Source of the DNA: an uncultured Clostridia bacterium
GTDB lineage: Bacteria; Bacillota; Clostridia; Peptostreptococcales; Anaerovoracaceae
Length of the DNA: 64,000 nt
Assembly: GCA_947302715.1 (NCBI GenBank)
Contig: CAMYVY010000009.1
Span: 11,648-75,647, forward strand
Reading direction: 5' to 3'
The notes below the pieces were generated by a model. That model did no database searches and was not told the DNA's origin. It saw only the letters and a list, made by a program, of their open reading frames with translations. A program made the translations under genes and the position numbers. How positions within the stretch are numbered: the stretch's first letter is position 1; every line of letters starts with the position of its first letter. Positions 22,664 through 29,353 of the stretch are shown one piece after another.

Positions 22664-23659
22664 ATGACTAAGACACTTGTTATAATGGCTGCGGGAATCG
22701 GTTCGCGATTCGGGGGCGGAATCAAGCAGCTTGAGCCTGTTGGACCGAATGGCGAAATAATAATGGACTATTCGATTCACGATGCGATAGCCGCCGGCTT
22801 TAAGAGAATCGTTTTCATCATTCGCCGAGACATCGAAGCGGATTTTATGGAGGTGATTGGTGACAGAATTGCTGCGGTTTGTGAGCCGCTTGGCGTTGAG
22901 GTTGCATACGCATTCCAAGAGAAGGACTTGATGCCGGCCGGGGTGCCTACAGAAGTCGAAGGACGTTTGCTTGATGATGTGATTATTGAACGAACAAAGC
23001 CTTGGGGCACAGGACACGCAATACTTGCCTGCGATGGTTTGATTGACGGCCCCTTTGCTGTTATAAACGCTGACGATTATTATGGAAAGAACGGATTTAA
23101 AAAGGCTGCGGAATTTCTTGAATCCGGCGGGGCCGAATACGGTCTTGTTGGTTATATTTTAAAGAACACGCTTTCCGACAACGGAGGCGTAACTCGCGGA
23201 ATCTGCCGGATTGCGTCTGATGGCAGCGATAGATTGATTGGAATCGACGAGACCAAGGACATCATCAAGGTCGTTAAACCTGCGGCAGAAAAAGGCGGCG
23301 AATCCGGCGGTGAATCGGAAACAGAAATCACTGCCGAATCCAACGGTGAACCTATTGATGTTAATTCGCTCGTATCAATGAACTTCTGGTGCTACCCCGC
23401 ATCGTTCATGGATGTGCTGAGAGAAGGCTTCCCGGAATTCCTCGAGGAGATGAGAGACCCTTTAAAGGATGAATACCTCCTTCCGACAATCGTGGATGGA
23501 CTTCTAAGACAAGGGACTGATGTCACGGTAATTCCGACGGACGACTGTTGGTTCGGTGTAACATATAAAGAAGACAAGACTTCCGTCGTCGACAGTTTCA
23601 AGAAACTCTACGAAGAGGGAGTCTACAGCGAGGACCTATACAATGAATTACAAAGATGA
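22664..23659 (+). CDS. Stand-alone sugar-1-phosphate nucleotidyltransferase
   Basis: 'IMAAGIGSRFGG.IKQ', 'KPWGTGHAIL', 'INADDYYG'; no left-handed beta-helix domain. Confidence 0.85.
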   Translation: MTKTLVIMAAGIGSRFGGGIKQLEPVGPNGEIIMDYSIHDAIAAGFKRIVFIIRRDIEADFMEVIGDRIAAVCEPLGVEVAYAFQEKDLMPAGVPTEVEGRLLDDVIIERTKPWGTGHAILACDGLIDGPFAVINADDYYGKNGFKKAAEFLESGGAEYGLVGYILKNTLSDNGGVTRGICRIASDGSDRLIGIDETKDIIKVVKPAAEKGGESGGESETEITAESNGEPIDVNSLVSMNFWCYPASFMDVLREGFPEFLEEMRDPLKDEYLLPTIVDGLLRQGTDVTVIPTDDCWFGVTYKEDKTSVVDSFKKLYEEGVYSEDLYNELQR

Positions 23660-25535
23660 ATATAAACGCTGGTTGGATAGTCCGACGGTGAGCAAAGCCG
23701 ACAAAGAGGAACTCCGTGCGCTTTCCGAAGACGAGGTTAGAGAAAGGTTTTCTGCTGAGCTGGAATTCGGAACTGCCGGAATTAGACGAGTCATGGAGGT
23801 TGGACCCGGTAGCATGAACAGCTATACGGTTAAGCATGTGACTCGCGCGCTTGGAATGTATTTAACTGGTGACAAAGATAATGCAAACCCGCAAAAACAA
23901 TACTCCGTTGTGATTGCGTGCGACTCGAGAAACAACAGCCAGAGATTTGCGGAGGAAGCAGCATGCGTACTTGCGGCACAGGGCATCCATGTGTTTTTGT
24001 TTGAGGACTTGAGACCGACACCCGAGCTATCGTTTGCCGTTCGCTACGCCGGTGCCTCCGCCGGAATCAACATAACCGCAAGCCATAACACCAAGGAATA
24101 CAATGGCTACAAGGTTTATGGATCTGATGGAGCGCAGCTATCTCCGGAGCACGCGGATGAGGTCGCTCGTATAATTTCCGAGACCGATGTCCTTGATGAG
24201 CCGGAATCGATGGACCTTGATGAGGCGGTGAAAAACAGCGTGGTCGAACTAATTGATGGCTATGTGGACAATATGTACCTGGCGCAGGTGATGCAGCAGT
24301 CGCGAATCGTTTCAGAAGCCGCAAAAACAAAAATTGTTTACACTGCGTTCCATGGAACAGGATACAAGTTTGTGCCGGAGGTTCTTAAGCGTGACGGTTT
24401 CGAAAATGTTTATTGCGTTGAGCCTCAGTGCATTCCGGACGGCGATTTTCCAACGGTCAAGAGTCCCAACCCGGAGAATGAAGAGAGCTTTAAAATGGCT
24501 ATTGAACTTGCGGCCTCTGTTTGCGCTGATTTGATTATCGGAACTGACCCGGACGGCGATCGCTGTGGCGTCGCAATCCCTGTGTCCAACGTTCAATCCG
24601 CACAATCATTAGACCGAGAAGAGGTCGGAATGACAGTGCAGGATTCGCAAGCTGCGCAGGAAGCTCCGGAACCATCAAGGAAATATAGAGTTCTTACCGG
24701 CAATCAAGTCGGCGTGCTGATTCTTGATTATCTAATCAAAATGCGCAGTATCGAAAGGCGCAATCTCGATACGCACGATCTTGAAAAGTCCAGTTCGGAC
24801 GCGACCAAACGGCCGTATGCCGCGAAGAGCATCGTTTCTACAAACATGGCGAATCGCATTTGTGAAAAACATGGCGTCGAAATGGTGGAAACTTTGACAG
24901 GCTTCAAGTTCATTGGTGAAAAGATGGAAGAACTCTCTGTCGGCCAGGGAAGGGAGTTTGTCTTTGGATTCGAAGAAAGCAACGGCTACCTTACCGGCCT
25001 CTATGCAAGGGACAAGGATTCGATTGTGGCGGCTTTGCTTGTTGCTGAGACTGCGGCCTATCATGCAGCTAATGGTCGAACCATGGAACAGGCGCTCGCC
25101 GCGCTCTACGAAGAATACGGTTATTATTTGGAAAAGGTGGTATCCAAGGGCTTTGATGGTCTTGATGGTGCAGCCGAGATGCAAGCGTTTATGGATAACT
25201 ATCGCCAAAATCCGCCATCAAAAATCGCAGGCCTACCGGTAATCACAATCAGGGATTATCTATCCGGCGAGATAAAAGAGATAGTCGGATCGCCGATAGC
25301 TACAGAGGATAGCGACACCTCTATTTATACGGATGCAAGTGCAGATGCGGGTATTCGCGTTCGACCGACCGGACTTCCAAAGAGCAATGTGCTCTTCTAC
25401 GAACTTGCCGGAGGAAGCAGCTTCGTCGTTCGCCCATCCGGTACAGAACCAAAAATCAAATTCTATCTGTCAGCTGTAGGTGCGACTCGCAGCGAAGCTG
25501 AGGCGGTGCTCGCAGCCCTCGAGTCTGCAATATAA
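23643..25535 (+). CDS. pgm: Phosphoglucomutase / phospho-sugar mutase
   Basis: 'FGTAG.R', 'ITASHN', 'DPDGDR', 'FEESNG', 'RPSGTEPKIKFY'. Confidence 0.92.
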   Translation: MNYKDEYKRWLDSPTVSKADKEELRALSEDEVRERFSAELEFGTAGIRRVMEVGPGSMNSYTVKHVTRALGMYLTGDKDNANPQKQYSVVIACDSRNNSQRFAEEAACVLAAQGIHVFLFEDLRPTPELSFAVRYAGASAGINITASHNTKEYNGYKVYGSDGAQLSPEHADEVARIISETDVLDEPESMDLDEAVKNSVVELIDGYVDNMYLAQVMQQSRIVSEAAKTKIVYTAFHGTGYKFVPEVLKRDGFENVYCVEPQCIPDGDFPTVKSPNPENEESFKMAIELAASVCADLIIGTDPDGDRCGVAIPVSNVQSAQSLDREEVGMTVQDSQAAQEAPEPSRKYRVLTGNQVGVLILDYLIKMRSIERRNLDTHDLEKSSSDATKRPYAAKSIVSTNMANRICEKHGVEMVETLTGFKFIGEKMEELSVGQGREFVFGFEESNGYLTGLYARDKDSIVAALLVAETAAYHAANGRTMEQALAALYEEYGYYLEKVVSKGFDGLDGAAEMQAFMDNYRQNPPSKIAGLPVITIRDYLSGEIKEIVGSPIATEDSDTSIYTDASADAGIRVRPTGLPKSNVLFYELAGGSSFVVRPSGTEPKIKFYLSAVGATRSEAEAVLAALESAI

Positions 25536-25747: not shown

Positions 25748-25882
25748 AAATCGATTATGGCTATATGTTGTTTATTTTTGTCATTAAAAGATGTTGACCG
25801 TGCGTAAATGATAAAGTAGCAGCATATAGGCATCAATTATAAAATGACCACTTGCGTATGGAGGTGAACAAGGAGCGGAGAG

Positions 25883-26100
25883 GTTATTAGCGCCTGGCCC
25901 GCAGCAGTAAGCATATTGAACTTATGTGACCGCCTAATCATGAGCGGTGTAATCAGTGAATTCAATTTGGTTTATGGCTGGACAGGGTGACGAGGAATGG
26001 CAGTTATCGAAATATTCGGCGGATGCTGCCACGGCCGGTTTGCGTAAAGTTGCAATGTTAATGCGGTTTTCAATGCCTTTTAAGTGACGAAGCAAGACAC
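25883..26100 (+). ncRNA. glmS ribozyme (GlcN6P-dependent self-cleaving riboswitch)
   Basis: Cleavage-site AGCGCC (25889-25894); P1 GCCC/GGGT; GACGAGG (25989-25995); P2 TGGCAG/CTGCCA; TTATCGAA-atat-TCGGCGGA. Order and pairing match the glmS core as I know it; the 3' boundary is approximate. Confidence 0.92.
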
Positions 26101-26244: not shown

Positions 26245-26940
26245 ATGTACAAAATAGCAGATCTCTATGATCTGGAACATAGCTTGGCGGGGGAATACAT
26301 TGGACAATTCGAGTATCCCTGGGAGGCATTAAAAGGCATCAAGGACTTTATTTTGGAGCTCGGCCCGACCTTGGAAGAGCGCTTCCCCGGGGAATACGAG
26401 GAGAGAGAACCCCAGGTATGGGTTCACAAAACTGCGACAGTATTTCCTTCTGCTTATCTTGGTGCGCCTTGCATCATCGGACCGAACACTGAAGTAAGAC
26501 ATTGCGCATTCATCAGGGGATCCGCTCTTGTTGGCGCTGACTGCGTAGTCGGTAACAGCGTGGAGCTAAAGAACGTGATTCTCTTTGACCATGTTCAGAC
26601 GCCGCACTATAACTATGTTGGTGATTCCATCCTGGGATATTACAGCCACATGGGAGCAGGTTCGATCACATCCAACGTCAAAGCCGATAAAGAGCTGGTC
26701 ATTGTGAACAACGTGAGAGGCTGCGGAACCCCGGACGGTGAACCTGAAATGATAGAAACGGGCATCAAGAAATTCGGTGCGATGCTCGGTGACCACGTCG
26801 AGATTGGATGTAATGCGGTACTTAACCCGGGCACTGTCGTTGGTCGAAACACTAATGTCTATCCGACCAGTTGCGTGCGTGGCGTAGTCCCTGAAAGCAG
26901 CATTTTCAAAAATAGCGGCGAAATCATTAAAAAGAAGTAA
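26245..26940 (+). CDS. Stand-alone left-handed beta-helix acetyltransferase, GlmU C-terminal-like
   Basis: Hexapeptide repeats; 'YPWEAL', 'ELKN', 'PHYNYVGDSILG', 'GAGSITSN', 'GAMLGDHVEIGCNAVLNPG'; no nucleotidyltransferase domain. Confidence 0.8.
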   Translation: MYKIADLYDLEHSLAGEYIGQFEYPWEALKGIKDFILELGPTLEERFPGEYEEREPQVWVHKTATVFPSAYLGAPCIIGPNTEVRHCAFIRGSALVGADCVVGNSVELKNVILFDHVQTPHYNYVGDSILGYYSHMGAGSITSNVKADKELVIVNNVRGCGTPDGEPEMIETGIKKFGAMLGDHVEIGCNAVLNPGTVVGRNTNVYPTSCVRGVVPESSIFKNSGEIIKKK

Positions 26941-26945
26941 TGCCC

Positions 26946-27063
26946 AAAACCAGCGACACTGTCGAGTTAAAACAAAAATCAAAACCAGCGACACTGTCGA
27001 ATTAAAACATAAATCAAAACCAGCGACATTGTCAAGCTAAAACATAAATCAAAACCAGCGACA
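26946..27063. repeat. 35-bp tandem repeat, 3 full copies plus a partial, each with an internal palindrome
   Basis: Units start at 26946, 26981, 27016 and 27051 (aaaaccagcgacactgtcga...); cgaca-c-tgtcg palindrome. Confidence 0.9.
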
Positions 27064-27092
27064 ATACATAAGAAATAGAAAGGAATAGCCAT

Positions 27093-27893
27093 ATGCGTGT
27101 AGTAATACAGGACAATTATGATAAGATGTGCCAGTGGGCAGCTAATTATATAGCTGATAAAATATGCAAGCACAACGAAGAAGAAAGCAGTCGCCCATTT
27201 ATTTTGGGACTCCCGACAGGCTCCAGCCCGATTGGAGTCTACAAAGAACTCATCAAAAAGAACAAAGCCGGCGAACTCAGCTTTGCAAATGTTGTTACAT
27301 TTAATATGGACGAGTATCTTGGCTTGCCACATGAACACGACCAAAGTTATTGGTACTTCATGCACGACAACTTCTTTAATCATCTCGTTGACATGAAACC
27401 GGAAAACATCAACATCCTAAACGGAATGACGGATGACCCGGAGGCGGAATGTGCCGCCTACGAGGAGAAGATTGAGTCGTATGGCGGAATCGATCTCTTT
27501 ATGGGGGGAATCGGTGTGGACGGACACTTGGCATTCAATGAGCCATTCACGTCATTAACAAGCCGCACCGGACTGCGCGACCTGACTACCGACACAAGAA
27601 TCGTAAACTCCAGGTTCTTTGATAACGACCCTAACAAGGTGCCGGCCCAGGCTCTCTCGGTCGGAATCGGAACGGTAACCGATTCAAAGGAAGTGCTTGT
27701 TTTGATTTCCGGACACAACAAGGCCCGCGCTCTTGCTGCAACGGTAGAGGGAAACGTGAGCCACAAATGGACGTGCTCGGCACTTCAGATGCACAATGGT
27801 GCAATCATTGCCTGTGACGAGGAAGCCTGCGGTGAACTAACTGTTGACACCTATAAATACTTCCTCGACATCGAAAAGAAAGAGAGATTGTAA
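27093..27893 (+). CDS. nagB: Glucosamine-6-phosphate deaminase/isomerase
   Basis: 'LGLPTGSSP', 'TFNMDEY', 'GGIGVDGHLAFNEP', 'NSRFFDND'; 266 aa. Confidence 0.95.
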   Translation: MRVVIQDNYDKMCQWAANYIADKICKHNEEESSRPFILGLPTGSSPIGVYKELIKKNKAGELSFANVVTFNMDEYLGLPHEHDQSYWYFMHDNFFNHLVDMKPENINILNGMTDDPEAECAAYEEKIESYGGIDLFMGGIGVDGHLAFNEPFTSLTSRTGLRDLTTDTRIVNSRFFDNDPNKVPAQALSVGIGTVTDSKEVLVLISGHNKARALAATVEGNVSHKWTCSALQMHNGAIIACDEEACGELTVDTYKYFLDIEKKERL

Positions 27894-27997
27894 TAAAAGA
27901 TTGTAATAAATAATTGTAATCAGTAATAACTTGAAGGTGGGCATTCGTCAATTGAATGCTTTCACGATTAAACTGTACTAAACAAAAAGGAGATACC

Positions 27998-29353
27998 ATG
28001 GGGAAATATTTTGGTACTGATGGTTTTCGCGGCGAGGCCAATAAAGACCTTAATTATGAACATGCGATAAAGATTGGGCGTTTCCTTGGCTGGTACTATG
28101 GCGCAAAGCAAGGACCGGAGAAAAAAGCCAAGGTAGTTATCGGCAAGGACACGCGCCGCTCGAGCTATATGTTCGAGGATGCGTTGTGCACAGGCCTTAT
28201 TGCGAGCGGCGCTGACGCCTATATCATGCATGTTACAACGACTCCGTCGGTTGCGTACATCACGCGTGTTGACGACTTTGATTGCGGAATAATGATTTCC
28301 GCGTCGCACAATCCGTTCTACGATAACGGCATCAAGCTCTTCAACGAAAAAGGTGAGAAGATGCCGGAGGATACGATTCTTGAAATCGAGGATTACATCG
28401 ATGGAAAGTTGGAGATTCCGCTTGCCGTCCGTGATAAAATCGGGCAGACCGTTGACTACGAATCCGGCCGCAACCGCTACATGGGTTATCTGATTTCGCT
28501 GGCGAAGTACGGCTTCAAGGATGTGAAGGTAGGTCTGGATGTTGCAAACGGTGCGGCCTGGTCTATTGCTAAGGGAGTTTTCAATGCGCTCGGCGCAAAG
28601 ACCTACGTTATAAACGACAGCCCGGATGGTTTCAACATCAACACCGACTGCGGCTCCACTCATATCGAGCATCTGCAGAAGTTCGTGGTCGACAATGGTC
28701 TGGATGTTGGTTTTGCTTATGATGGCGATGCCGACCGTTGCCTCTGCGTCGATGAAAAGGGAAACGTCATTACTGGCGACCACATTCTCTATATCTACGG
28801 CCTCTACATGAAAGAGCGCGACAAACTTCTCGACAACAAAATCGTAACGACCATCATGAGTAACTTTGGTCTCTATAAGGCGCTCGACAAGGTCGGCATC
28901 GAATATGAGAAAACCAAAGTCGGCGACAAATATGTCTATGAATGCATGGCCGAAAACGGTTATCGTATCGGCGGTGAACAGAGCGGCCACATCATTTTTA
29001 CAAAGTATGCGACGACGGGTGACGGCATCCTGACCAGTCTCAAAATCATGGAGGCGATGCTGGCAAAGAAGAAGCCGCTTAGTGAACTCGCTGCACCAGT
29101 AGAGTTCTATCCGCAGGTTCTTAAGAACGTCCGCGTGAAGAGTAAGCCCGACGCACAGAATGACCCGGATGTGCAGGCAGCGGTCGCAGCGGTCTCCGAG
29201 AAACTGGGAGACGAAGGACGAATTCTCGTTCGCGAGTCCGGGACAGAGCCTGTGATTCGCGTAATGGTTGAGGCGGGCTCCGACGAGACCTGTGAAAAAT
29301 ACGTTGATGAGGTCATCGAGGTTATTGCGAGCAAGGGCCACATCGCAGAGTAG
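27998..29353 (+). CDS. glmM: Phosphoglucosamine mutase
   Basis: 'KYFGTDG.RG', 'GKDTRRS', 'ISASHNPF.DNGIK', 'DGDADR', 'VGDKYV', 'GGEQSGH', 'RESGTEP'; AAGGAG RBS before ATG 27998. Confidence 0.95.
   Translation: MGKYFGTDGFRGEANKDLNYEHAIKIGRFLGWYYGAKQGPEKKAKVVIGKDTRRSSYMFEDALCTGLIASGADAYIMHVTTTPSVAYITRVDDFDCGIMISASHNPFYDNGIKLFNEKGEKMPEDTILEIEDYIDGKLEIPLAVRDKIGQTVDYESGRNRYMGYLISLAKYGFKDVKVGLDVANGAAWSIAKGVFNALGAKTYVINDSPDGFNINTDCGSTHIEHLQKFVVDNGLDVGFAYDGDADRCLCVDEKGNVITGDHILYIYGLYMKERDKLLDNKIVTTIMSNFGLYKALDKVGIEYEKTKVGDKYVYECMAENGYRIGGEQSGHIIFTKYATTGDGILTSLKIMEAMLAKKKPLSELAAPVEFYPQVLKNVRVKSKPDAQNDPDVQAAVAAVSEKLGDEGRILVRESGTEPVIRVMVEAGSDETCEKYVDEVIEVIASKGHIAE

What the first reader, a model, noticed from the sequence alone, without database searches (positions are those of the whole stretch)
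27093..27893. NagB probably run in reverse as a glutamine-independent GlcN6P synthase; allosteric site appears remodelled
Seen: nagB lies between two biosynthetic genes, with no nagA or GlcNAc PTS gene in the window. Switching off a catabolic deaminase when its substrate is high would be counter-productive, whereas switching off a synthase is the usual ribozyme logic. Known: the reaction Fru6P + NH3 <-> GlcN6P is reversible and is used biosynthetically in Giardia. Against E. coli NagB as I recall it, the catalytic D72/H143/E148 equivalents are kept, but the segment after FNEP reads FTSLTSRTGLRD versus ASSLASRTRIKT. That implies R158G and T161D at the GlcNAc6P activator site. Inference: an activator-independent enzyme exploiting high ammonia in an amino-acid fermenter.
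Basis: partly seen in the sequence, partly recalled or inferred. Interest (0 to 1): 0.85.

Follow-up and report, generated by a model that had tools for sequence, protein, structure and literature searches.

The report
NagB likely makes glucosamine-6-phosphate here
In this rumen bacterium, which has no detectable glmS gene, the "breakdown" enzyme NagB sits behind a glucosamine-6-phosphate-sensing ribozyme together with two cell-wall-precursor enzymes and has lost the residues that bind its usual activator, so it most likely makes the cell-wall amino sugar directly from ammonia.

Summary
ORF 27093-27893 is a full-length NagB with its catalytic residues intact. It lies between a GlmU-C-like acetyltransferase and glmM, behind a glmS ribozyme (25878-26084).

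Against E. coli NagB, the GlcNAc6P activator site is changed: S151T, R158G, K160R, T161D, and also K250D. These changes are fixed in all 85 NagBs of this cassette clade. They are essentially absent from other long-type NagBs.

The assembly (90.8% complete) has no glmS, no canonical glmU, no second nagB or glmM, and no PTS enzyme I. Five sister species with the same cassette also lack glmS. In the same family, five high-quality genomes lack both glmS and nagA yet keep a nagB.

NagB is therefore the only recognisable route from fructose-6-P to GlcN6P. OFF-type ribozyme control makes sense only for a GlcN6P producer.

Caveats:
- A nagA with an ABC transporter and a kinase lies elsewhere, so salvage is possible.
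- 45 of 50 other cassette carriers keep glmS.
- This copy of the ribozyme is atypical.
- Nothing is shown biochemically.

The scan has already reported the ribozyme-nagB cassette on at least eight other genomes. New here are the complete absence of glmS and the clade-wide remodelled allosteric site.

The parts
25878..26084 (+). glmS-class GlcN6P-dependent ribozyme in the leader of the operon. The core is kept; P1 carries an 84-nt insertion and the P3-P4 domain is shortened.
   Evidence: RF00234 39.4 bits against a gathering score of 37. The alignment shows the AGCGCC cleavage-site box, GACGAGGA and UUAUCGA..UUCGGCGGAUG. It is the only glmS ribozyme in the genome.
26245..26940 (+). Stand-alone left-handed beta-helix acetyltransferase resembling the GlmU C-terminal half. 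Probably a GlcN-1-P N-acetyltransferase.
   Evidence: TIGR03992 Arch_glmU 131 bits over its C-domain, plus Hexapep. PDB matches 5z09/2ggo and GlmU C-domains. It is the best GlmU match in a genome without a canonical glmU.
27093..27893 (+). nagB: long (E. coli/human-type) glucosamine-6-phosphate deaminase/isomerase, proposed to run as Fru6P + NH3 -> GlcN6P.
   Evidence: TIGR00502 376.5 bits. PDB homologues at E 1e-94 to 1e-102. Catalytic residues kept. It is the only nagB in the genome.
27549..27581 (+). Codons for E. coli positions 151-161, i.e. face A of the GlcNAc6P allosteric site: S151T, R158G, K160R, T161D.
   Evidence: Alignment to E. coli NagB and 85 clade members. Contrast with other long-type NagBs. 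The list of E. coli allosteric residues is from PMC4281351.
27846..27848 (+). Codon for E. coli position 250: K250D. In E. coli, K250 forms a salt bridge with E246 that links the two trimers.
   Evidence: 85/85 clade members have Asp. The role of E246-K250 is from PMC4281351.
27956..29353 (+). glmM, phosphoglucosamine mutase (GlcN6P -> GlcN1P). It is the only glmM in the genome.
   Evidence: TIGR01455 536 bits against a cut-off of 447. tblastn over the whole genome finds no other close copy.
22664..23659 (+). Nucleotidyltransferase-like protein, candidate for the uridylyltransferase half of a split GlmU.
   Evidence: Weak NTP_transferase matches. PDB 3pnn and weak UTP-glucose-1-P uridylyltransferase hits. 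Its homologue lies directly upstream of nagB in two glmS-less relatives, G028 and G032.

Best explanation
NagB is this organism's de novo glucosamine-6-phosphate synthase. It aminates fructose-6-P with free ammonia. GlmM and the stand-alone acetyltransferase, encoded in the same operon, then carry the product towards UDP-GlcNAc.

The glmS-class ribozyme in the leader senses GlcN6P. By self-cleavage followed by mRNA decay, it lowers operon expression when the product is plentiful. This is the same negative feedback that normally acts on glmS.

The enzyme belongs to a horizontally spread rumen clade of long-type NagBs in which the intersubunit GlcNAc6P activator site has been rebuilt (Gly158, Arg160, Asp161, Thr151). 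The enzyme is therefore probably no longer switched on by the catabolic signal GlcNAc6P.

Shown: gene identities, gene context, the phyletic pattern and the residue changes. Inferred: the direction of flux, the loss of activation, and ribozyme activity in this copy.
For: 1. The operon is ribozyme -> acetyltransferase -> nagB -> glmM, with no plus-strand terminator inside it.

2. No glmS is found in the genome. The only hit is a 120-bit GATase-domain match in a 493-aa frame. There is also no SIS-type deaminase hit. glmS is likewise missing in G001, G002, G003, G007 and G010, which carry the same long nagB cassette (completeness 75-96%).

3. Within the family, 12 of 13 genomes without glmS have nagB, against 7 of 24 genomes with glmS.

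4. G008, G022, G028, G032 and G033 (94-97% complete) lack both glmS and nagA but keep a nagB. It lies among housekeeping genes or next to the nucleotidyltransferase homologue.

5. The cassette holds the genome's only glmM, only nagB and only GlmU-like acetyltransferase. There is no canonical glmU and no PTS enzyme I.

6. In 53 of 80 species-level loci with this NagB, a ribozyme lies just upstream of the cassette. In 34 of 50 carrier genomes the single ribozyme was located; in nearly all of those compared it lies at the cassette, and where glmS is on another contig or upstream it has none.

7. The allosteric residues are changed in 85/85 clade members, while the catalytic residues are intact. 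Other long-type NagBs keep S-S..R.K.T.

8. A predicted homotrimer places the changed segment (E. coli 149-156 and 161) against Met1 and Tyr254 of the neighbouring subunit, as in E. coli. The score is 0.88 against a best control of 0.00. That mark was reached by 21 of 30 solved homomers and 0 of 23 monomers. The pass may come from memory of solved NagBs.

9. There is precedent. Giardia lacks GlmS and uses NagB anabolically, with Km for NH4+ of 19-23 mM and no GlcNAc6P effect (PMC4281351). Overexpressed E. coli nagB suppresses a glmS defect (PMC11822699 citing Vogler 1989).

10. No Amt ammonium transporter was found, which fits life at high ammonia.
Against: - A nagA lies on contig C30 with a sugar ABC transporter, a MalK-like ATPase and an APH-family kinase. 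Imported amino sugars could therefore supply GlcN6P, and NagB could also drain it.
- 45 of 50 other cassette carriers keep glmS, sometimes in the same operon. The cassette is thus not in general a glmS replacement.
- The ribozyme here scores only 39.4 bits, has an 84-nt insert in P1 and a shortened P3-P4 domain.
- Sister genomes G010, G001 and G003 have the cassette with no ribozyme at all.
- The assembly is 90.8% complete.
- There are no kinetic, expression or labelling data. The RNA-seq look-up gave nothing usable.
Confidence: 0.7

Rival explanations
1. Salvage/catabolic NagB in an amino-sugar auxotroph. GlcN6P comes mainly from imported GlcNAc or wall fragments through the ABC transporter, kinase and NagA. 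NagB then works in the usual direction, sending the surplus to glycolysis. I recall Borrelia as such a case (no glmS, needs GlcNAc); this was not checked here.
For: - nagA (294 bits) lies with a sugar-binding protein, two permeases, a MalK-like ATPase and an APH-family kinase on C30.
- nagA is also present in the cassette-bearing sisters G001, G002, G007 and G010.
- G059, in another family, lacks glmS and has an adjacent nagA-nagB pair.
Against: - An OFF-type GlcN6P ribozyme on a GlcN6P-consuming enzyme would give positive feedback.
- nagB is linked to glmM and the acetyltransferase, not to nagA.
- The GlcNAc6P activator site, the hallmark of the catabolic enzyme, is dismantled.
- Five good genomes of the family have nagB without nagA or glmS.
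Confidence: 0.18
2. The ribozyme is decayed or inactive in this genome, so nagB-glmM expression is constitutive. NagB may still be the synthase, but the feedback argument does not apply to this copy.
For: - The score is barely above the gathering score (39.4 against 37), and only 32.8 in the genome-wide run.
- P1 carries an 84-nt insertion.
- The P3-P4 domain is truncated relative to G002, G006 and G007, which score 51-69 bits.
- Cassette-bearing sisters have no ribozyme.
Against: - All core boxes, including the cleavage site, are intact and identical to those of relatives.
- P1 length is naturally variable.
- P3-P4 is, as I recall, dispensable for catalysis though it enhances it (my own knowledge, not checked here).
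Confidence: 0.25
3. The ribozyme acts here as an ON switch or processing site: cleavage stabilises or frees the downstream mRNA. NagB would then be a deaminase induced by its substrate.
For: - In some carriers the ribozyme lies between glmS and the cassette (G096, G097, G107). Cleavage there would separate two transcripts.
- No tool result favours an ON outcome.
Against: - The known mechanism is 5'-OH-dependent decay of the downstream fragment (PMC5473149).
- An ON reading does not explain the co-regulated glmM and acetyltransferase, nor the absence of glmS here.
Confidence: 0.05

Closest known systems
E. coli / human hexameric NagB (GNPDA), the catabolic enzyme allosterically activated by GlcNAc6P
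   Same: Same family and same long form with the C-terminal extension. 55% identity to E. coli NagB. Catalytic D72, D141, H143, E148, K208 and R172 are kept, as are Tyr121, Tyr254, Cys118 and Cys239. The predicted trimer interface is the same.
   Different: Activator-site residues are changed (S151T, R158G, K160R, T161D) and the inter-trimer salt bridge is lost (K250D). The gene is linked to glmM and an acetyltransferase, not to nagA/nagE. It lies behind a glmS ribozyme, in a genome without glmS.
Giardia lamblia NagB (Gln6PI), an anabolic GlcN6P-forming deaminase in an organism without GlmS
   Same: The proposed role is the same: the only GlcN6P source, using free ammonia, and insensitive to GlcNAc6P. 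Giardia also lacks part of the E. coli activator-binding set (PMC4281351).
   Different: Giardia is a eukaryote, its enzyme has a different quaternary behaviour, and regulation is transcriptional during encystation. Here the organism is a bacterium, the control is a ribozyme, and the enzyme is co-encoded with GlmM and an acetyltransferase. Insensitivity to GlcNAc6P is only inferred here.
Canonical glmS ribozyme in the 5' UTR of glmS (Bacillus and other Firmicutes; RF00234)
   Same: Same RNA family and core, and the same expected logic: the product GlcN6P triggers cleavage and lowers synthesis.
   Different: The controlled genes are acetyltransferase-nagB-glmM, and no glmS exists in the genome. 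P1 carries an 84-nt insert and P3-P4 is shortened.
E. coli glmS suppression by nagB overexpression (Vogler et al. 1989)
   Same: It shows that a NagB can supply GlcN6P in vivo (as cited in PMC11822699).
   Different: That is a laboratory suppressor that needs overexpression. Here the arrangement is natural, conserved, and sits in the housekeeping pathway.
The ribozyme-nagB-acetyltransferase-glmM cassette already reported by this scan in other rumen and gut Clostridia
   Same: Same cassette and same NagB clade, 87-94% identical.
   Different: This lineage has no glmS, glmU or PTS at all, so the cassette is the only pathway. The allosteric-site remodelling had not been noted: a look-up of earlier notes found none.

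Membership tests
NagB / glucosamine-6-phosphate deaminase-isomerase (TIGR00502, PF01182) | Profile match above the curated cut-off over the full length | tested here: met
   376.5 bits against a cut-off of 236.9, covering residues 1-261 of 266. PF01182 75.9 bits.
NagB / glucosamine-6-phosphate deaminase-isomerase (TIGR00502, PF01182) | Catalytic residues Asp72, Asp141, His143 and Glu148, and the phosphate/lid residues Lys208 and Arg172 (E. coli numbering) | tested here: met
   All are identical in the window protein and in 84-85 of 85 clade members.
Allosteric hexameric NagB subgroup (E. coli, human GNPDA) | Long form with the C-terminal segment carrying Tyr254, and the N-terminus / face-A intersubunit cleft | tested here: met
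   Tyr254, Tyr121 and Met1-Arg2 are kept. The predicted homotrimer interface uses E. coli 149-156 and 161 against residues 1, 3 and 254-255. Score 0.88 against a best control of 0.00; the mark was reached by 21/30 homomers and 0/23 monomers; the pass may be from memory.
Allosteric hexameric NagB subgroup (E. coli, human GNPDA) | GlcNAc6P-binding residues Ser151, Arg158 and Lys160 (plus Thr161) | tested here: not met
   They read Thr, Gly, Arg and Asp here. Gly158 and Arg160 occur in 85/85 clade members and Asp161 in 74/85. Nearly all other long-type representatives keep S..R.K.T. The residue list is from PMC4281351.
Allosteric hexameric NagB subgroup (E. coli, human GNPDA) | Glu246-Lys250 salt bridge joining the two trimers | tested here: not met
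   Glu246 is kept, but Lys250 is Asp in 85/85.
Allosteric hexameric NagB subgroup (E. coli, human GNPDA) | Kinetic activation by GlcNAc6P and homotropic cooperativity | not testable with these tools
   This needs the purified enzyme.
Anabolic NagB (Giardia-type use as GlcN6P synthase) | No GlmS (or other GlcN6P synthase) in the genome | tested here: met
   No TIGR01135 match above 120 bits in the 90.8%-complete assembly. The same holds in five sister genomes with the cassette. Absence from an incomplete assembly is not proof.
Anabolic NagB (Giardia-type use as GlcN6P synthase) | Gene context and regulation of a biosynthetic pathway | tested here: met
   It shares an operon with the only glmM and the only GlmU-like acetyltransferase, behind a product-sensing ribozyme.
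Anabolic NagB (Giardia-type use as GlcN6P synthase) | Net flux Fru6P + NH3 -> GlcN6P in vivo | not testable with these tools
   This needs 15N tracing or genetics.
glmS ribozyme (RF00234) as regulator of this operon | Covariance-model match at or above the gathering score, with the conserved core | tested here: met
   39.4 bits against 37. The AGCGCC, GACGAGGA and UUAUCGA..CGGCGGAUG boxes are intact.
glmS ribozyme (RF00234) as regulator of this operon | Complete peripheral P3-P4 domain | tested here: inconclusive
   It is shortened and mispaired relative to genus relatives, and the score is 12-30 bits lower.
glmS ribozyme (RF00234) as regulator of this operon | GlcN6P-dependent self-cleavage | not testable with these tools
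   This needs an in vitro cleavage assay.

The most novel reading that the evidence does not exclude
The cassette NagB is a distinct enzyme subtype whose former activator cleft has been rebuilt for a new purpose. One possibility is that Asp161 and Arg160 bridge to the neighbouring N-terminus and lock the oligomer in an active, activator-independent state. Another is that the cleft now binds a different effector, for example a pathway end product. Under either reading, the mobile ribozyme-controlled NH3-dependent UDP-GlcNAc module has fully displaced glmS and glmU in this lineage.
Probability: 0.3. Interest if true: 0.8.

Novelty: new variant of a known kind. Interest (0 to 1): 0.68.

Why it matters
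Textbook bacterial cell-wall synthesis starts with the glutamine-dependent GlmS. GlmS and its ribozyme are treated as essential and as drug targets. Here a whole lineage appears to do without GlmS and to use a 'catabolic' enzyme with free ammonia instead. That would save the ATP spent on making glutamine in the ammonia-rich rumen.

If confirmed, three things follow:
- It gives a natural bacterial example of an anabolic NagB.
- It provides a defined set of residue changes (R158G, K160R, T161D, S151T, K250D) that may convert an allosteric catabolic enzyme into a biosynthetic one.
- It warns against annotating nagB as 'amino-sugar catabolism', or inferring amino-sugar auxotrophy from a missing glmS, in gut and rumen genomes.

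Tried and rejected
- **Expression evidence.** No RNA run was listed for the operon. With nagB alone, only metagenome contigs with at most 0.29 of the sampled words were listed. Laying four runs gave fragments of relatives and no transcript ends. Its one use was to show relatives without the 84-nt P1 insert.
- **Literature on ribozyme targets.** McCown et al. 2011 and 2012, the glmS ribozyme surveys, are not held. I could not check whether non-glmS targets were listed there.
- **Full-text searches.** I searched for the glmS ribozyme with nagB, with rumen, and for NagB reverse or anabolic use in bacteria. No report of this arrangement turned up.
- **Hidden ribozyme in sister genomes.** A sensitive search upstream of nagB in G010, G001, G003 and G011 found none at E up to 1.
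- **"Cassette = glmS replacement" as a general rule.** Rejected: 45 of 50 other carriers have glmS.
- **Missing glutamine synthetase as the reason for losing glmS.** Rejected: two GS homologues are present.
- **GC3 as a sign of transfer.** GC3 of the cassette genes (0.54-0.60) is above the genome GC (0.44). I treat this only as a hint of transfer or high expression.

Full report
**What is in the window.**
ORF 27093-27893 (+) encodes a 266-aa protein. It scores 376.5 bits against the nagB equivalog model TIGR00502 (cut-off 236.9) and 75.9 bits against PF01182. It matches solved NagB structures at E 1e-94 to 1e-102 and is 55% identical to E. coli NagB, taken from MG1655 as L010.

Upstream lies a 231-aa left-handed beta-helix acetyltransferase (26245-26940). 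Its best matches are the C-terminal acetyltransferase halves of archaeal-type and bacterial GlmU and of S. tokodaii ST0452. Downstream lies glmM (27956-29353; TIGR01455 536 bits).

A glmS-class ribozyme lies at 25878-26084 (RF00234, 39.4 bits, gathering score 37). No plus-strand terminator-like site lies between the ribozyme and the end of glmM. The four elements therefore read as one operon.

The window holds no nagA or GlcNAc transporter gene.

**The allosteric site.**
The quoted segment is exact. In E. coli numbering:
- Kept: catalytic Asp72, Asp141, His143, Glu148, and Arg172 and Lys208.
- Changed: Ser151 to Thr, Arg158 to Gly, Lys160 to Arg, Thr161 to Asp, and Lys250 to Asp.
- Also kept: Tyr121, Tyr254, Cys118, Cys239 and Glu246.

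A published comparison lists Tyr121, Asp141, Glu148, Ser151, Arg158, Lys160 and Tyr254 as the E. coli residues that bind the activator GlcNAc6P. It names Glu246-Lys250 as the salt bridge between the two trimers (PMC4281351). Another paper describes the site as an intersubunit cleft. In it the activator's phosphate bridges face A to the neighbour's N-terminal amino group (PMC4008608).

The changes are not a peculiarity of this genome. I compared 85 NagBs of the same clade: 80 species-level loci from public genomes plus five same-genus relatives.
- Thr151, Gly158, Arg160 and Asp250: 85/85.
- Asp161: 74/85, with Asn in 9.

Among 50%-identity representatives of the whole family, nearly all other long-type NagBs read S-S..R.K.T at these positions. 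This includes the nearest one outside the clade (62% identity).

A maximum-likelihood tree places the clade as one group (support 100/99) inside the long-type half of the family.

A predicted homotrimer puts E. coli positions 149-156 and 161 of one chain against residues 1, 3 and 254-255 of the next. That is the E. coli allosteric cleft. The score is 0.88 against a best control of 0.00. That mark was reached by 21 of 30 solved homomers and 0 of 23 monomers. Because similar complexes are solved, the pass shows likeness only.

Loss of one of the two cationic phosphate ligands, plus a new carboxylate in the site, makes GlcNAc6P binding unlikely. This is an inference from sequence, not a measurement.

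**Does the organism need NagB as a synthase?**
The assembly has 2.05 Mb in 43 contigs and is 90.8% complete. It contains:
- no glmS: the only hit is a 120-bit GATase-domain match in a 493-aa frame, and no SIS-domain hit;
- one nagB;
- one glmS ribozyme;
- no canonical glmU: the best match is the cassette acetyltransferase;
- one glmM;
- no PTS enzyme I: the only hit is an 893-aa frame, probably a pyruvate phosphate dikinase;
- no Amt transporter;
- two glutamine synthetase homologues.

Same-genus genomes G001, G002, G003, G007 and G010 carry the same long nagB with the acetyltransferase and glmM (G003: nagB and the acetyltransferase only in the stretch fetched). They are 75-96% complete and also lack glmS. 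A chance miss in all six is very unlikely.

Across the 37 genomes of the family that were searched:
- 12 of 13 without glmS have nagB. The exception is 84% complete.
- 7 of 24 with glmS have nagB.

Five good genomes lack both glmS and nagA yet keep a short-type nagB: G008, G022, G028, G032 and G033 (94-97% complete). That nagB lies among housekeeping genes (fabZ, typA, prsW). In two cases it lies directly behind a homologue of the window's nucleotidyltransferase-like gene 22664-23659.

In these genomes a NagB without NagA cannot serve GlcNAc catabolism. It is the only recognisable link between fructose-6-P and GlcN6P.

**The regulatory argument.**
The known glmS ribozyme represses: GlcN6P-triggered cleavage leads to decay of the downstream mRNA (PMC5473149). 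Applied to a GlcN6P consumer, that would be positive feedback. Applied to a producer, it is ordinary end-product control.

The association between ribozyme and cassette is general:
- 53 of 80 species-level loci with this NagB have a ribozyme within 400 nt upstream of the first cassette gene.
- The gene order is shuffled between loci: NagB-AT-GlmM, AT-NagB-GlmM, and others.
- 34 of 50 carrier genomes have exactly one ribozyme. In those I compared by coordinates with the cassette loci, it sits at the cassette in nearly all (G071 is an exception), and glmS has none where it lies on another contig.
- Some genomes read glmS, ribozyme, AT-nagB-glmM (G096, G097, G107). Others read ribozyme, nagB-AT-glmM, glmS (G070, G073).

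**Qualifications.**
First, a nagA (294 bits) lies on contig C30 with a sugar-binding protein, two permeases, a MalK-like ATPase and an APH-family kinase. Amino-sugar salvage is therefore possible, and NagB may be amphibolic.

Second, 45 of 50 other carriers keep glmS. In general the cassette is a second, probably ammonia-dependent route. Complete replacement is a feature of this lineage.

Third, this ribozyme copy is atypical. Its core boxes are intact and identical to those of relatives. But P1 carries an 84-nt insertion and the P3-P4 domain is shortened. Sister genomes G010, G001 and G003 have the cassette with no ribozyme.

Fourth, nothing here measures flux, kinetics or expression. The RNA-seq look-ups were uninformative.

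**Origin.**
The clade's NagBs are 87-94% identical across genomes labelled Lachnospiraceae (including the isolate Butyrivibrio sp. FCS014), Oscillospiraceae/Ruminococcaceae (including isolate YRB3002), Erysipelotrichaceae, Mogibacterium and Anaerovoracaceae. Nearly all are from ruminant gut samples.

The short-type NagBs of other genomes in the window's own family lie in the other half of the tree. The cassette therefore looks horizontally spread among rumen Clostridia, and acquired in this genus subclade.

The host is probably an Anaerovoracaceae-like member of the Peptostreptococcales. I infer this from record titles and from the CWB2 wall proteins in the window. Its being an amino-acid fermenter was not tested.

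**Comparison with what is known.**
The enzyme is a member of the NagB family and of its long form. It fails the defining activator-binding features of the allosteric subgroup.

Functionally the nearest precedent is Giardia NagB. It replaces the missing GlmS, has a Km for NH4+ of about 19-23 mM, and is not affected by GlcNAc6P (PMC4281351). The other precedent is the E. coli laboratory suppression of glmS by overexpressed nagB (PMC11822699 citing Vogler 1989).

I found no paper describing a natural bacterial NagB in this role, or a glmS ribozyme in front of nagB. The key ribozyme surveys could not be read.

This scan has already reported the ribozyme-nagB cassette on at least eight other genomes. 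This report adds three things:
- a lineage in which glmS, glmU and the PTS are all missing;
- the family-wide pattern in which genomes have either glmS or nagB;
- the clade-wide remodelling of the activator site. A look-up of earlier notes found none on that point.

**Verdict.**
I rate it a new variant of a known kind: an anabolic, probably activator-independent NagB under product-sensing ribozyme control. Confidence in the anabolic reading is about 0.7.

Noticed in passing
window 26944-27083: The 152-nt gap between the acetyltransferase and nagB holds about 3.5 tandem copies of a 34-35-nt unit. Each unit starts CAAAACCAGCGACA and contains the small palindrome CGACAnTGTCG. The full motif occurs nowhere else in the genome, and the gap is unrelated in sister genomes G002 and G007. 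It could be an operator array or just a hypervariable spacer.
   Followed up: partly
window 25900-25985: The P1 stem-loop of the ribozyme carries an 84-nt insertion that relatives lack. Metagenome contigs of relatives skip exactly this stretch.
   Followed up: partly
L110 (G000 contig C30) 6497-14254: This is an amino-sugar salvage-like locus: nagA, a sugar-binding protein, two permeases, a MalK-like ATPase and an APH-family kinase. The kinase could be an anomeric N-acetylhexosamine kinase of the NahK/AmgK type. If so, it would make GlcNAc-1-P and bypass NagB, GlmM and the acetyltransferase.
   Followed up: partly
window 22664-25535: A nucleotidyltransferase-like gene (closest structure 3pnn) overlaps the start of a 630-aa phosphohexomutase-like gene just upstream of the ribozyme. 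The genome has second copies of both (37% and 33% identity) on contigs C3 and C1. The nucleotidyltransferase homologue is adjacent to nagB in G028 and G032.
   Followed up: partly
L020 (G040 contig C5) 1396-4483: A genome in another family of the same order has a strong canonical ribozyme (120 bits) followed by a short-type nagB and then glmS, on the same strand. The ribozyme would thus control both enzymes.
   Followed up: no
P0125 (representative protein, 262 aa): The sister of the cassette clade shares Gly158 and Arg160. In my alignment it reads Ala, Asn and Arg at catalytic positions 72, 141 and 143. It may be a non-catalytic relative, or the alignment may be wrong there.
   Followed up: no
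whole genome G000: No Amt-family ammonium transporter was found, although all 14 control genomes have one. The assembly is 90.8% complete.
   Followed up: no
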